Shown here in pieces: positions 76 to 56,794 of a DNA stretch of 58,681 nucleotides (the first letter of the stretch is position 1; the number at the start of each line of letters is the position of its first letter). The stretch covers positions 1 through 58,681 of the forward strand of contig JALTWS010000019.1 of assembly GCA_027048495.1 (NCBI GenBank). The letters run 5' to 3'. A program made the translations under genes and the position numbers. The notes beneath the pieces are model-generated. The model ran no database searches and had not been told where the DNA came from. It worked only from the letters and a program-made list of their open reading frames with translations. The stretch comes from Candidatus Azambacteria bacterium. Its GTDB lineage: Bacteria > Patescibacteriota > Minisyncoccia > GWC2-36-17 > M10-OD1-4.

Positions 76-723
76 TTAACATTTTTTTATTCTCAAAGAT
101 AAAACGTAAGTCCAGCGCAACATAACAGCTCCTATTATCAAAGATAAAATAGGATCTATTAGATTAAAGCCGGTTGTCATTATCAAAACTCCGCCAATAA
201 CAACAGCAATGCTTTGTAAAAGATCTGATAATACATGAAACTTAACAGATTCATGGGTTATATTTTCATCATGCATGTGATCTAAAATTTTGTGTTGTAT
301 GTAATTGCCAACGGTTCCTAAAATTGCAATTGATATCATAATCCAGCTGTTTATCTCTCTTGGCTCAAATATTCTTGCGATAGCCTCATATATTATCCAC
401 AAAGAGACGGCAAGAAGCAGACCGGCGTTTATGTATCCGCTTGTTTTTCTTAGCTTTTTTTCGTTTAATCCTTTTGAGATGTAGTAAGACACAACAATTG
501 CAACAAAAACAGAAGATGCGTCAATTAACACATGCCAAGCATCGGCAAGCAAAGCCAAGCTGTTTGATATTATTCCGCCGACAAGCTCAATTAAAAAAAC
601 AGAAAAAGCAATAAAAAACACCAAGCTGAATTTTTTTAGCTCACAAAGACAATTATGTCTTAAGTCGCATTTATCAAAATGTTTTTTTATTTTTTTGTGT
701 TGTGTGTGACAATTTGCGCTCAT
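76..723 (-). other. Cation diffusion facilitator (Zn/Co/Cd efflux), lacking cytosolic C-terminal domain
   Basis: SNSLALLADAWHVLID and HVLSD metal-site motifs; about 6 TM helices; 215 aa. Confidence 0.85.
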
Positions 724-914: not shown

Positions 915-1337
915 ATGAAATTGCTCAAAAGCGCAGTTTTTGGTATGATGCTGGCATTGCCGATGTTTGTTTTTTCTGGGAGTTCTCAGGCTAATGGTGC
1001 CTATGCATTTTCTGTGGATAGGTTTCAGTTTCCTGAGGATGATGAAGAAGATTGGAGAATAATATTTCATCTTTATACTAATTATTCTCCAGATCCAAAT
1101 CAATTCATTATTTATGGATGGACTGCATTTGGCAACTGGAGGGATATAACACAAGATGTGATAGGGCAATCCCCTGCATGGTATGAATGCAAGGCGGATT
1201 TTGTGAGTATAACATTTAATCCTTCTTATCCCAGATATGAGGTTGTTTATAGAATGGGAGACAGAATGTCATATTGGTCACCAGCCTGTCTTGGCTTATC
1301 TAATCCACAATATTATAATTTTTATTTGGATTATTAA
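915..1337 (+). CDS. Hypothetical secreted protein
   Basis: Signal-peptide-like N-terminus; GGAGG upstream; terminator downstream. Confidence 0.65.
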   Translation: MKLLKSAVFGMMLALPMFVFSGSSQANGAYAFSVDRFQFPEDDEEDWRIIFHLYTNYSPDPNQFIIYGWTAFGNWRDITQDVIGQSPAWYECKADFVSITFNPSYPRYEVVYRMGDRMSYWSPACLGLSNPQYYNFYLDY

Positions 1338-1344
1338 TTTTTAT

Positions 1345-1381
1345 TAGGGTTGGTAGATGTTTCTACCAACCCTACTTTTTT
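1345..1381 (+). terminator. Intrinsic terminator
   Basis: 13-bp stem tagggttggtaga/tctaccaacccta plus T-run. Confidence 0.8.
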
Positions 1382-1396
1382 GAAATAATAAAAAAT

Positions 1397-1723
1397 ATGT
1401 TTAAGAATAAAACTTCAAAATTTTTAATGAATAATTATGTTTTGGGGGTCTCTATTATATTTTTTGCTTTTATTTTTATAAATTACCAGTTCTCTTTTAA
1501 CTTTTTTAAATATACAGGTCCTATTTTGGGTGTTTTTATTGAGTGGTTATTCTTTCTTGTACCGATTTATTGGGCTTTTCGTATAATGTTTTATTTTAAA
1601 AAAAATAAGTTAATCTTAGTTTTATTTTTTATATTTTCATTTTTGTATTTTCTTGCTCTGATTTATTCTGGTGTTTTTTCTTATGGCTTTGAAGTTATTT
1701 TAAAAGAAGGATTAAGCAATTAA
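1397..1723 (+). CDS. Hypothetical membrane protein
   Basis: Three hydrophobic segments; very AT-rich. Confidence 0.5.
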   Translation: MFKNKTSKFLMNNYVLGVSIIFFAFIFINYQFSFNFFKYTGPILGVFIEWLFFLVPIYWAFRIMFYFKKNKLILVLFFIFSFLYFLALIYSGVFSYGFEVILKEGLSN

Positions 1724-45528: not shown

Positions 45529-45945
45529 ATGAATAAATTAATAATATATACAGACGGCGGGTCCAGAGGAAATCCGGGTCCCTCTGCCATAGGGGTGGTT
45601 ATAAAAGATGAAAAAGAAAACACCATAAAAACTTATGGTGAAAAGATCGGTACAGCAACAAACAATGAAGCGGAATACAAAGCAATAATATTTGCTTTGC
45701 AAAAAGCAAAACTGCTTTTGGGCAAAAAAAAGGCAAAAGAGACGGAAGTTCATGTCAAGATGGATTCAGAGCTTGCTTTTAAACAATTAACAGGGGAGTA
45801 CAAGCTGACAAACGAAAATATTCAAAAGTTTTTTATAGAGATTCACAACCTAAAAACAGAATTTAAAAAAGTTACATTTGAACATATAAAAAGAGAATAC
45901 AACAAAGAGGCAGATGCCGCACTAAACAAAGCTCTAGACAGTTAA
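45529..45945 (+). CDS. rnhA: Ribonuclease HI family
   Basis: YTDGGSRGNPG, TNNEAEY, DSEL, REYNKEAD. Confidence 0.92.
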   Translation: MNKLIIYTDGGSRGNPGPSAIGVVIKDEKENTIKTYGEKIGTATNNEAEYKAIIFALQKAKLLLGKKKAKETEVHVKMDSELAFKQLTGEYKLTNENIQKFFIEIHNLKTEFKKVTFEHIKREYNKEADAALNKALDS

Positions 45946-45974
45946 TTTTTATTTGTTTATTTTATTTGTTAAAA

Positions 45975-46166
45975 ATGAAAAGGCGACCACAGATGTGGGT
46001 CGCCTTGGTTATAAAAGGATTTTTGTAATTTTCCCCCGTCAGGGGGCATCTCGGGCATTGTAGCCCATGTTCACCTCCTTGCCCCTCTGGGGCGTAGTTG
46101 CCCCCGCTTGGTTTATTCCCCGGGGGCGGACGTTAACTCATATTCCCCAGGCCCATCCTGAAGAAC
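45975..46166 (-). ncRNA. Candidate GC-rich structured small RNA (may encode 9-aa peptide MGYNARDAP, 46068-46039)
   Basis: TTGACA-17-TAAGGT promoter, five GC hairpins, AAGGAGGTGA, terminator aaggcgacc/ggtcgcctt-TTTT. Confidence 0.6.
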
Positions 46167-46172
46167 ACTTTT

Positions 46173-46223
46173 ACCTTATCATGTTTTAAAATACTTGTCA
46201 AGTATTTTTTTGTGTGGTATAAT
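46173..46223. promoter_or_regulatory. Divergent sigma70 promoters sharing a palindromic -35 region
   Basis: + TTGTCA-17-TATAAT; - TTGACA-17-TAAGGT; aaaatacttgtcaagtatttt. Confidence 0.75.
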
Positions 46224-46238
46224 AAGTCCAGCTTTTTG

Positions 46239-46649
46239 AAAACAGATCAAGGCAAAAAGCGCAATCGCCTGAGCTTTTTTAAAAAAGCAGGGGAGGAAAG
46301 TCCGGACACCTATTTTCGCTTTTTGCGAAATAAACGCAGCGGCTAACGGCCGTCGCACTAGCAGTCAGGCACTAGTTGCTGGTTGCTGGTGTAGAGGTGC
46401 GAACAGAGACGCCACGAGCCGAAAGGCAAGTGGGCTCCAACTTGGAGTAGTCCTTGTGGCAACACAAGGGGTGAAACGGCTAAATCCTTGCGGGGTGCAA
46501 GACAGTATCCTGGCGCCTTTTGTTTTTACAAAAAAGGTGCTGGGGGTGGTCGCATGAGCTTGCCAGTAATGGCAAGCCAAGATAAATGATTGCGGCTTTG
46601 CGTCAGCAAAGTACAGAATCCGGCTTACATTTTTGTCTTGATCTGTTTT
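46239..46649 (+). ncRNA. rnpB: RNase P RNA
   Basis: GAGGAAAGTCCGG...ACAGAATCCGGCTTA signatures; P1 aaacagatcaaggcaaaa/ttttgtcttgatctgttt. Confidence 0.96.
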
Positions 46650-56214: not shown

Positions 56215-56392
56215 ACTTTTTTTCTTTGTCCTTTATTTCTTCTCTTACTATTTTTACATTGGGGGGAGCTTTTATTGATATTCTTGCGCTGTTTTTTTGA
56301 ATTTTTACCACTGTTACTATGATTTCATTTTCTCCTTCTCCAATGATGATGCTTTCACCCGGTCTTCTTGTAAGAACTAAAAATCCACTCAT
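56213..56392 (-). CDS. csrA: Carbon storage regulator CsrA/RsmA homolog (59 aa, not in ORF track)
   Basis: MSGFLVLTRRPGESIIIGEGENEIIVTVVKIQKNSARISIKAPPNVKIVREEIKDKEKK matches CsrA pattern L.LTR..GE.I.IG...V.V......RI.I.AP..V.I.REE; SD AAGGAGGA. Confidence 0.9.
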   Translation of the reverse strand: MSGFLVLTRRPGESIIIGEGENEIIVTVVKIQKNSARISIKAPPNVKIVREEIKDKEKK

Positions 56393-56506: not shown

Positions 56507-56705
56507 TCGGAAAGGTGATGCTGGCAGTTTTTGCAGGACGGATGCAGGATGCGAGTATGTCTGTTTTTGCGAGCTCTTAGGCTTGCATAAGAGAGCAATT
56601 ATTAATCCTCTTATTTTAAAGACCAGGGGCTAAAATCCCTGGCTGCTCTCCGGACAGAGGCGCCTGCAGGCGCTGTAAGAACAAAAGCATTGCCTTTCCG
56701 AACCA
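56507..56705 (+). ncRNA. Candidate multi-helix ncRNA divergent from csrA
   Basis: 16-bp and 10-bp long-range helices with G-U pairs, several inner hairpins, TTGACA upstream, terminator downstream. Confidence 0.65.
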
Positions 56706-56711
56706 AATTTC

Positions 56712-56750
56712 AAAACCTCGCTTGCTAAAGAAGCGGGGTTTTTCTTTTTT
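56712..56750 (+). terminator. Intrinsic terminator
   Basis: aaaacctcgctt/aagcggggtttt plus T-run. Confidence 0.8.
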
Positions 56751-56794
56751 TGGTCTTTGTTTTTTGTAAAATTTATGTATAATCAATCATAAAT

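What the first reader, a model, noticed from the sequence alone, without database searches (positions are those of the whole stretch)
45975..46201. GC-rich hairpin-string transcript divergent from rnpB with a perfect anti-SD complement and 9-codon ORF
Seen on the minus strand: promoter TTGACA-17-TGaTAAGGT; hairpins cagg/cctg, gcccccg/cgggggc, gcccc/ggggc, gggc/gccc and ccccc/ggggg; a terminator. It is much more GC-rich than its surroundings. An unpaired AAGGAGGTGA (46080-71), complementary to the canonical 16S 3' end, precedes ATG GGC TAC AAT GCC CGA GAT GCC CCC TGA. It also has CAGGATG and four other GGAs. Inference: a ribosome-binding or decoy RNA, a micropeptide mRNA, or a second CsrA ligand.
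Basis: partly seen in the sequence, partly recalled or inferred. Interest (0 to 1): 0.75.

Follow-up and report, generated by a model that had tools for sequence, protein, structure and literature searches.

The report
Orphan GC-rich small transcript beside rnpB
Between the RNase H gene and the RNase P RNA gene of an ultra-small (CPR) bacterium lies a hairpin-rich, GC-rich stretch of about 190 bases that looks like a small gene with a strong ribosome-binding site and a nine-codon reading frame, but it was found in no relative, so it is probably a young, species-specific small RNA or a relic.

Summary
The sequence features are real. On the minus strand there is TTGACA-17-TGaTAAGGT, five G/C-run hairpins, AAGGAGGTGA + ATG + a 9-codon ORF, and a hairpin/U-tract terminator. 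The core is 59% GC in a 33% GC genome.

Two details of the observation fail:
- The SD is not predicted to be free. It pairs with an upstream GUUAACGUCC, though no more strongly than shuffled upstream sequence would give.
- The five GGA motifs equal chance (5 seen, 5.5 expected), so a CsrA-sponge reading has no support, although csrA is in the window.

No Rfam family matches. The element is single-copy. I found no homologue by BLAST or a covariance model in 60 relatives, in 98 to 117 related loci, or in phage, plasmid, genome or viral collections. Close relatives join RNase H directly to rnpB. One sister genus has a different, non-homologous SD + 34-codon unit in the same slot. No RNA data exist.

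Best reading (0.4): a species-restricted small structured RNA or mini-mRNA that loads ribosomes. Main rival (0.35): a functionless insertion or gene relic. Interest is low to moderate.

The parts
46188..46208 (.). 21-bp perfect palindrome AAAATACTTG-T-CAAGTATTTT. It contains both back-to-back -35 hexamers: TTGTCA of rnpB on the + strand and TTGACA on the - strand.
   Evidence: I13: 10-nt arms, 100% complementary, 1 nt between them; rnpB promoter TTGTCA-17-TATAAT, 11 of 12, with TG
46173..46201 (-). Candidate promoter: -35 TTGACA (46201-46196), 17-nt spacer, TG-extended -10 TGaTAAGGT (46181-46173). The start site is inferred at about 46168-46166.
   Evidence: sequence; pattern found 9 times against 2.3 +/- 1.3 expected, several in front of SD+ATG gene starts; not listed by the consensus scan because the -10 matches 3 of 6
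46140..46168 (-). H1: 5'-terminal 12-bp hairpin with loop AUGGG and 4 G-U pairs, which become A-C mismatches on the + strand. It contains CAGGAUG.
46069..46137 (-). Predicted three-way junction. The closing helix pairs GUUAACGUCC (46137-46128) with GGAGGUGAAC (46078-46069). The two arms are H2 (46127-46100, GCCCCCG/CGGGGGC) and H3 (46093-46081, GCCCC/GGGGC).
   Evidence: the sequestration is not beyond chance
46071..46080 (-). AAGGAGGTGA, a perfect 10-nt complement of the genome's own 16S 3' tail.
46039..46068 (-). 9-codon ORF MGYNARDAP with stop TGA. The ATG lies 5 nt after GGAGG. The ORF runs through H4 (46066-46053) and into H5 (46046-46033), and the TGA sits in the H5 loop.
46007..46032 (-). 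A/U-rich spacer. It varies between strains: +TTTC after 46029 and +G after 46015 in run X2.
45971..46006 (-). Intrinsic terminator: a stem with one bulged C, loop AUCU, then UUUUCAUUUUU. In the X2 strain the bulge is deleted and two loop bases change.
   Evidence: I23

Best explanation
This is a species-restricted, independently transcribed small RNA of about 190 nt on the minus strand, made from a GC-rich stretch of about 215 bp that lies between the 3' end of the RNase HI gene and the rnpB promoter.

How it most likely works:
- Transcription starts at a TG-extended promoter whose -35 is the mirror image of the rnpB -35, so the two promoters probably compete for polymerase.
- The RNA opens with a 5'-terminal 12-bp hairpin, folds into three further G/C-run hairpins plus one at the stop codon, and ends at an intrinsic terminator.
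- Its only sequence-specific signal beyond the hairpins is a full-length Shine-Dalgarno site with an AUG at optimal spacing. The most likely activity is therefore in cis: a 30S subunit binds and translates a nine-codon frame. That would make a nonapeptide, protect the RNA from RNase J, which this genome encodes, or do both.

Shown: the sequence signals, the fold stability, the strand asymmetry, the single-copy state, and that no homologue turned up in any data set searched.
Inferred: transcription, translation, and any benefit to the cell.
For: - Promoter architecture is enriched genome-wide (9 against 2.3 +/- 1.3).
- The terminator has its U-tract only on the minus strand. Its strain variants fall in the loop or remove the bulge.
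- H1 has four G-U pairs, and the minus strand folds better (z -4.27 against -3.42).
- The core fold is well defined (MFE frequency 0.11, z -3.76).
- The 10-nt SD occurs only 4 times in the genome counting both strands, and another copy precedes a 215-codon gene.
- AAGGAGGT followed by ATG precedes many long ORFs, so the organism uses SD-led initiation.
- RNase J is present (505.6 bits against a cut-off of 400).
- The DNA is real in two samples: a 5087-nt contig of run X2 spans it.
- The 29-codon +1 frame running through the terminator takes a net +4 nt of indels in X2, whereas the 9-codon frame is untouched (read by hand).
Against: - No transcript evidence of any kind.
- No homologue in 60 relatives by BLAST or by a covariance model.
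- None in 98 to 117 related loci.
- None in the phage, plasmid, genome or viral collections.
- RNase H abuts rnpB directly in G002, G012 and G016. In 10 of the 17 metagenome loci with this gene order the spacer is only 23-81 nt.
- The single-sequence covariance model has little power.
- The -10 hexamer matches only 3 of 6.
- The X2 strain is identical across the core, so there is no covariation test.
- The core is more GC-rich (58.7%) than this genome's 16S (~52%), rnpB (50%) or tmRNA (40%). The genome also carries several GC-rich repeat families. GC-richness alone therefore does not argue for function.
Confidence: 0.4

Rival explanations
1. A functionless insertion or relic. Either GC-rich foreign or mobile DNA landed in a recombination-prone junction, or this is the stump (promoter, leader, start codon, terminator) of a small gene that has since been lost. 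Its signals are left-overs and any transcription is noise.
For: - Orphan status in every search.
- The junction is highly variable. Relatives whose RNase H is 84-86% identical in amino acids (L040-L042) carry other sequence there, including a 77-codon gene. 7 of 17 RNase H->rnpB loci hold other genes or tRNAs there. G001 has an unrelated unit.
- The core GC exceeds that of the genome's true structural RNAs.
- Six strain differences cluster in 38 nt of the spacer and terminator.
Against: - It matches none of 16 other GC-rich islands and is single-copy.
- It has no convincing terminal inverted repeats: the best pair is 10 of 13 (I16).
- A perfect 10-nt SD with an ATG at 5 nt, a promoter of the enriched type and a strand-specific terminator together are unlikely left-overs unless the relic is very young.
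- The core is identical in a second strain, although at the ~0.2% background divergence this carries little weight.
Confidence: 0.35
2. A leader that controls read-through antisense transcription into the RNase HI gene. Ribosome loading or stalling on the mini-ORF (Pro-UGA-C ending) would alter termination at 46006-45971, and read-through RNA would pair with rnhA mRNA.
For: - The only thing downstream on the minus strand is the antisense of rnhA.
- There is a short ORF directly upstream of a terminator.
- The terminator stem carries a bulge in this strain.
Against: - The stop codon lies 33 nt before the terminator stem, beyond a ribosome's reach.
- I saw no alternative anti-terminator pairing, by eye or in the folds.
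- Relatives manage with no such element.
Confidence: 0.07
3. A CsrA-titrating sRNA, in the manner of CsrB/RsmZ.
For: - csrA is encoded 10 kb away at 56222-56380(-).
- The element has CAGGAUG at the top of H1, a GGA in the H2 loop, and AAGGAGG.
Against: - GGA: 5 observed against 5.5 +/- 1.5 expected, P(>=obs) 0.75.
- ANGGA: 1 observed against 1.4 expected.
- Three of the five GGA are in predicted stems.
- No co-conservation with csrA, since the element has no homologues.
Confidence: 0.05
4. Plus-strand reading. The hairpins are a structured 3' UTR or processing spacer of an rnhA-rnpB co-transcript, and it carries a copy of the anti-SD, CACCUCCUU.
For: - The + strand also folds well (z -3.42).
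- There is no good + strand terminator after rnhA.
- G002 has no terminator at all between rnhA and rnpB.
Against: - rnpB has its own 11-of-12 promoter downstream of the element.
- H1 collapses on the + strand because its G-U pairs become A-C.
- The U-tract, promoter, SD and ATG all read on the minus strand.
Confidence: 0.05
5. A diverged member of a known RNA class: SRP RNA, 6S RNA, a riboswitch or an RNA thermometer.
For: - SRP RNA and 6S RNA were not found elsewhere in the genome.
- The three-way junction with a paired SD has the look of a riboswitch or thermometer.
Against: - No Rfam hit above 18.8 bits even at E<=10.
- The genome lacks Ffh and FtsY, so no SRP RNA is expected. The M domain was found in 0 of 151 genomes of the phylum, and absence in many CPR is in print (PMC8080830, passage read).
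- A housekeeping RNA would be conserved in the family, and this is not.
- The SD pairing is no stronger than in 12% of shuffles.
- There is no regulated gene downstream.
Confidence: 0.02

Closest known systems
Small RNAs that also carry a short translated ORF (dual-function sRNAs such as SgrS/SgrT, RNAIII/hld, SR1/SR1P; names recalled, not from a call)
   Same: A stand-alone unit of promoter, hairpins, SD, short ORF and terminator, about 200 nt long, with no downstream gene in the same direction.
   Different: Those ORFs are 26-43 codons and the RNAs are conserved within genera. Here the ORF is 9 codons, no base-pairing target is known and no homologue was found.
STAB-SD 5' mRNA stabiliser of Bacillus thuringiensis cry3A (PMC4113751, section 3.2, passage read)
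   Same: An SD-like sequence fully complementary to the 16S 3' end that could hold a 30S subunit and block 5'-to-3' decay. RNase J is present here.
   Different: STAB-SD does not direct initiation and sits in the leader of a long mRNA. Here an AUG follows at ideal spacing and there is no cargo gene. The SD lies ~90 nt from the predicted 5' end, behind three hairpins.
CsrB/RsmZ-type CsrA-sequestering sRNAs
   Same: A hairpin string, some GGA motifs, and csrA in the genome.
   Different: GGA is not enriched and mostly lies in stems.
GC-rich intergenic-region ncRNA candidates in AT-rich bacteria (GC-IGR approach: PMC6429828 and PMC11109978, seen as search listing and start of abstract only)
   Same: Detected the same way: an intergenic island of high GC (59% against 33%) with a stable predicted structure.
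   Different: Those candidates are accepted on covariation across homologues. Here there are none, and this genome's GC-rich repeats show that such islands need not be RNA genes.
Short leader peptides of attenuators (trpL, ermCL, the 9-codon cat/cmlA leaders; recalled)
   Same: A very short ORF with a strong SD, embedded in hairpins upstream of a terminator.
   Different: There is no downstream gene on that strand, no alternative pairing was seen, and the stop codon is 33 nt from the terminator.

Membership tests
Any Rfam 15 family | Covariance-model score at or above the family's gathering threshold | tested here: not met
   the only hit in the window is RNaseP_bact_a at 46249-46643; the best score within 45900-46280 is 18.8 bits against a cut-off of 50.
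CsrA sponge (CsrB/RsmZ kind) | Excess of GGA / ANGGA motifs, mostly in hairpin loops | tested here: not met
   GGA 5 against 5.5 +/- 1.5, ANGGA 1 against 1.4; 3 of the 5 lie in stems.
CsrA sponge (CsrB/RsmZ kind) | The CsrA protein is present in the organism | tested here: met
   PF02599 scores 62.9 bits at window 56222-56380(-).
CsrA sponge (CsrB/RsmZ kind) | Direct binding of CsrA | not testable with these tools
   Needs EMSA or footprinting.
SRP RNA | Domain IV motif and a partner Ffh M domain in the genome | tested here: not met
   no RF00169 or RF01854 match; no SRP_SPB domain, only a 24-bit P-loop hit to PF00448, and no DTAGR motif (motif recalled).
6S RNA | A long closing stem with a large central bubble, and a match to RF00013 | tested here: not met
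   no match. This is a weak test, because the control rings in only 5 of 14 genomes; the fold is a string of separate hairpins with no end-to-end stem.
Leader-peptide transcription attenuator | A regulated gene downstream on the same strand | tested here: not met
   only the antisense of the RNase HI gene follows.
Leader-peptide transcription attenuator | Mutually exclusive anti-terminator and terminator pairings within reach of the ribosome | tested here: inconclusive
   None seen in the folds or by eye. The stop codon is 33 nt from the stem.
STAB-SD type stabiliser | An SD-like sequence complementary to the 16S 3' end, and a 5'-3' exonuclease in the cell | tested here: met
STAB-SD type stabiliser | Does not start translation, and protects a downstream coding mRNA | tested here: not met
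   An ATG lies 5 nt after GGAGG with a 9-codon ORF, and there is no cargo gene.
GC-rich MITE-like repeats of this genome | Several copies, or sequence similarity to a repeat family | tested here: not met
   single copy; no score clearly above shuffles against 16 islands; the best was 27 against a null maximum of 24.
GC-rich MITE-like repeats of this genome | Terminal inverted repeats | tested here: not met
   the best flanking pair is 13 nt at 77% (I16), against 26-nt perfect repeats in family A.
Translational riboswitch / RNA thermometer | SD sequestration beyond what the composition gives, and a regulated ORF | tested here: not met
   opening cost 5.0 kcal/mol against 3.6 +/- 1.5 in shuffles, with 12% reaching it. 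The only ORF is 9 codons.

The most novel reading that the evidence does not exclude
The RNA is a trans-acting ribosome trap. Its full-length SD recruits 30S subunits onto a nine-codon frame that ends in Pro-UGA-C. By recalled E. coli work on C-terminal proline and on weak UGA-C stops, that ending terminates poorly and stalls ribosomes. The sRNA would then hold or sense ribosomes, or the capacity for termination and rescue, in a minimal CPR cell. At the same time its promoter competes head-to-head with rnpB through the shared 21-bp palindrome.
Probability: 0.06. Interest if true: 0.7.

Novelty: new member of a known kind. Interest (0 to 1): 0.27.

Why it matters
Almost nothing is known about small RNAs or micro-ORFs in Patescibacteria (CPR). 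Two literature searches turned up no paper describing sRNAs of these bacteria. If this unit is expressed, it would be a rare candidate. It would also be an example of how fast small transcription units turn over beside a housekeeping promoter: two genera of one family carry unrelated SD-plus-short-ORF units in the slot beside rnpB, and a third species has none.

The result is also a caution. In this genome GC-rich intergenic islands are often repeats, so GC content plus hairpins alone does not identify an RNA gene.

Tried and rejected
- **RNA evidence.** No RNA holder is listed for the stretch. All four runs laid were DNA contigs. X3-X5 gave no piece across 45983-46163 and none that bridges it.
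- **SRP RNA, 6S, tmRNA.** Rejected. tmRNA is elsewhere, on C18.
- **Homology with the G001 unit.** The local alignment without the promoter scores 94 against 88.1 +/- 6.7, and 58 of 300 shuffles reach it, so homology is not shown.
- **The G001 unit.** It is itself an orphan: 1 of 40 other genomes gave only a 25-nt hit. A local tblastn against the held loci and the own genome found only itself.
- **Sequence searches with the element.**
  - blastn-short and nhmmer against 117 loci gave only 12-16-nt matches.
  - The covariance model R1 found 0 in 60 relatives at E<=1 and 0 in 98 loci at E<=10.
  - The phage collection gave only a 33-nt AT-rich match to the promoter part. The plasmid collection gave none.
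  - Three exact or degenerate patterns in genome contigs (two scans) and viral contigs found 0.
- **MITE reading.** Rejected.
- **Type I toxin reading of the + strand 40-codon ORF (46067-46189).** No SD or promoter by eye, and a proline-rich N-terminus. Rejected without a formal test.
- **Thermophily as the cause of the GC-rich stems.** The 16S is only ~52% GC, so this is not supported.
- **Thermometer or riboswitch.** See the membership test.
- **Supplementary files of papers.** Not consulted.

Full report
**Setting**

The window is contig C19 of a 0.80-Mb assembly: 46 contigs, 98.6% complete, 33.2% GC. It is a Patescibacteria/CPR bacterium; that name comes from earlier notes of this scan, not from a test of mine. 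The finding lies in the 303-bp gap between an RNase HI gene (45529-45945, +; PF00075 and PF13456) and the RNase P RNA gene (46249-46643, +; RF00010, 131 bits). The surrounding genes are housekeeping: a PilT-like ATPase, RecJ, and sugar transferases.

**The observation**

- TTGACA at 46201-46196, then 17 nt, then TGaTAAGGT at 46181-46173.
- A 5'-terminal hairpin H1.
- H2 (GCCCCCG/CGGGGGC), H3 (GCCCC/GGGGC), H4 (GGGC/GCCC) and H5 (GCCCCC/GGGGG).
- AAGGAGGTGA at 46080-46071.
- ATG at 46068 opening a 9-codon frame (MGYNARDAP) whose TGA (46041-46039) sits in the H5 loop.
- An A/U-rich spacer, then a terminator hairpin (46006-45980) followed by UUUUCAUUUUU.

The 143-nt core folds to -66.2 kcal/mol. 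The MFE structure holds 11% of the ensemble, z is -3.76, and 1 of 200 shuffles is as stable. With the terminator included, z is -4.27.

GC is 0.573 at 46025-46174, against 0.29-0.35 on either side.

The 10-mer is the exact complement of this genome's own 16S tail. It occurs only 4 times in the genome counting both strands, and one further copy precedes a 215-codon gene.

**Which strand**

The minus strand is favoured for four reasons.
- The U-tract follows the terminator only on that strand.
- H1 shrinks on the + strand because its G-U pairs become A-C.
- The minus strand folds better (z -4.27 against -3.42).
- The promoter, SD and ATG all read on that strand.

The -10 hexamer is weak (3 of 6), and the consensus scanner listed neither this promoter nor the terminator. 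However, the architecture TTGACA-N13-15-TGnTAnnnT occurs 9 times in the genome against 2.3 +/- 1.3 in Markov-1 random genomes. Several copies sit in front of SD+ATG gene starts, so the promoter call is reasonable.

The -35 lies in a 21-bp perfect palindrome (46188-46208, I13). That palindrome also gives the rnpB -35, TTGTCA. The two promoters are therefore back to back and probably mutually exclusive. This last point is inference.

**Two details fail**

1. The SD is not predicted to be free. It forms the closing helix of a three-way junction with GUUAACGUCC (46137-46128). The GGA of the SD is paired with p~0.99, and opening GGAGG costs 5.0 kcal/mol. This is not a special feature either: with the upstream 90 nt shuffled, the cost is 3.6 +/- 1.5 kcal/mol and 12% of shuffles reach 5.0.
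2. The five GGA motifs are what the composition gives: 5.5 +/- 1.5, with P(>=5) = 0.75. ANGGA occurs once against 1.4 expected, and three of the five GGA lie in stems. The window does encode CsrA (56222-56380, -), but nothing marks this RNA as its ligand.

**Known families**

Rfam gives nothing at gathering thresholds or at E<=10 with lax filters, where the best score is 18.8 bits.

I considered a diverged SRP RNA, because RF00169 and RF01854 find nothing in this genome or in 0 of 41 genomes of the class, own genome included. But the protein partners are missing too.
- There is no SRP_SPB domain.
- PF00448 gives only a 24-bit P-loop hit. In the class, 10 of 41 genomes gave hits, all 24.4 bits or below.
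- There is no DTAGR motif in any frame (the motif is recalled).
- 0 of 151 genomes across the phylum carry the M domain, while 14 of 14 control genomes do.

A paper states that the two SRP subunits are absent in many CPR bacteria (PMC8080830, passage read). No SRP RNA is therefore expected. 6S RNA was not found either, but that control is weak: it rings in only 5 of 14 genomes.

**Relatives**

The element is single-copy.
- BLAST in 60 relatives gave one 37-nt match to the terminator tail only.
- A covariance model built from the single sequence and its MFE structure (R1) found nothing in the 60 relatives at E<=1, and nothing in 98 held loci at E<=10. Such a model has little reach.
- rnpB was located in 29 of 31 genomes. 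I profiled GC upstream of it in 29 loci and read 12 of them, chosen by kinship or GC peaks. In G002 (same family), G012 and G016, the RNase H gene abuts the rnpB promoter with no insert.
- Through the RNase HI protein I fetched 80 metagenome loci (the best 80 of 118) and read 14 of them. Relatives at 84-86% amino-acid identity (L040-L042) carry other sequence after RNase H. In L041 and L042 this is a 77-codon gene and no rnpB.
- Of the 70 loci with at least 150 nt downstream, 17 have rnpB within 1.2 kb. Ten of these have spacers of 23-81 nt, and seven hold other genes or tRNAs.
- blastn-short and nhmmer against 117 loci found only 12-16-nt matches.
- Phage, plasmid, species-genome and viral collections gave nothing relevant.

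**A positional analogue**

G001, in the sister genus, has in the slot divergent from rnpB a TTGACA-17-TAATGT promoter with TG, hairpins, AAGGAG plus a GC-rich 34-codon ORF, a second SD with a 4-codon ORF, and a terminator. Short blocks look alike around the SD and start codon. The alignment without the promoter is not significant, however: 58 of 300 shuffles reach it. The G001 unit is itself an orphan, and its far flank is a different gene. The junction therefore gains unrelated small SD-bearing units in different lineages.

**Strain variation**

No run on record as RNA holds the stretch, which says nothing about expression. A 5087-nt DNA contig of run X2 spans the whole 1.6-kb stretch with 6 substitutions and 6 gapped letters. 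All differences inside the element lie at 45992-46029.
- Two are in the terminator loop.
- One deletes the bulged C, making the stem perfect.
- One removes a basal A-U pair.
- Two are insertions in the spacer.

The core and promoter (46030-46201) are identical. At a background divergence of ~0.2% that is not informative. The indels (net +4) break a 29-codon +1 frame that runs through the terminator, so that frame is not coding. The 9-codon frame is untouched. I read both of these points by hand.

**Is GC-richness evidence of an RNA gene here?**

Less than usual. A scan for 100-nt windows of at least 52% GC gave 107 islands. Besides tRNAs, rRNAs and rnpB, they include several repeat families.
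- Family A has at least 6 copies, one with 26-nt perfect inverted ends.
- Families B, C and D each have at least 3 copies. Copies of C (C28, C14, C10, C38) lie at contig ends.

The present element matches none of the 16 islands compared and lacks good inverted ends. Its core (58.7% GC) is richer than the 16S (~52%), rnpB (50%) and tmRNA (40%). That fits foreign or repeat-like origin at least as well as selection for structure. The 16S value also gives no sign of thermophily.

**Mechanism**

The non-random signals are the promoter type, the strand-specific terminator and, above all, the full-length SD with an ATG at 5 nt. The organism clearly uses SD-led initiation.

My best reading, at 0.4, is a young, species-restricted small RNA that loads a ribosome on a nonapeptide frame. 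The 5' hairpin, the bound 30S subunit and the terminator would all stabilise it in a cell that has RNase J. This works like the STAB-SD stabiliser (PMC4113751) or like sORF-bearing sRNAs, but the element is a member of neither.

The main rival, at 0.35, is a functionless insert or the stump of a lost small gene in a recombination-prone junction.

Minor rivals are control of antisense read-through into rnhA (0.07), a CsrA sponge (0.05), a plus-strand spacer (0.05) and a known RNA class (0.02).

**Verdict**

This is a new, orphan member of a known kind (a small RNA or small-ORF unit). Interest is low to moderate until a transcript is shown.

Noticed in passing
whole genome G000 and 151 genomes of the phylum: No SRP system was found. 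There is no SRP RNA (RF00169 and RF01854), no Ffh M domain (0 of 151 genomes in the phylum, against 14 of 14 controls), and no SRP-type GTPase (only P-loop hits of 24.4 bits or less in 41 genomes; no DTAGR motif in the own genome). A paper already says the SRP subunits are absent in many CPR (PMC8080830, passage read)..
   Followed up: partly
window 56222-56380 (-) and ~56540-56790 (+): A csrA gene (62.9 bits). Divergent from it lies a GC-rich sRNA-like stretch on the + strand that begins GCAGGACGGAUGCAGGAUGCG and ends in a terminator (AAAACCUCGCUUGC...GCGGGGUUUUUCUUUUUUU).
   Followed up: no
G000: C26:3821-3990, C33:5702-6018 (two copies), C11:47270-47383, C21:3141-3252, C38:7722-7832; also C45/C28/C16 (family B), the contig ends of C28/C14/C10/C38 (family C), C14/C37 (family D): Several families of GC-rich repeats in a 33% GC genome. 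Family A has at least 6 copies at 71-88% identity, and one copy has 26-nt perfect inverted ends. Family C sits at contig ends, so it probably breaks the assembly.
   Followed up: partly
G000 C16:45036-45200 (+): Another stand-alone sRNA-like unit. It has a TTGACA-N15-TGtTACTTT promoter, a long hairpin GAGGCUGAAA...UUUUCAGCCUCC with a CCUCC (anti-SD-like) word inside, and then a terminator..
   Followed up: no
G000 C30:~541-700 (+): A GC-rich 51-codon gene for a small basic protein (MAKKSQKF...KCKKN), with promoter, AAAGGAGG SD and terminator..
   Followed up: no
L029 (G001) 1076-1437, minus strand: A non-homologous orphan unit divergent from rnpB in the sister genus. It has a promoter, hairpins, AAGGAG plus a 34-codon GC-rich ORF (MHNNDPNHQ...), a GNRA hairpin followed by a second SD with a 4-codon ORF, and a terminator..
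   Followed up: partly
L041 / L042 downstream of the RNase H match: In relatives whose RNase H is 84% identical in amino acids, the RNase H gene is followed by a 77-codon gene with its own terminator and then the sugar-transferase gene. There is no rnpB between them, so the gene order at this junction differs among near relatives..
   Followed up: no
window 45992-46029: Six strain differences (3 substitutions, 3 indels) cluster in 38 nt of the terminator and spacer in run X2, against 3 substitutions in the other ~1560 nt..
   Followed up: partly
window 46104-46117 and 46329-46342: The H2 loop word of the element's RNA (AAUAAACCAAGCGG) is 12 of 14 identical to a word inside rnpB RNA (AAUAAACGCAGCGG). 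This is probably chance., I8.
   Followed up: no
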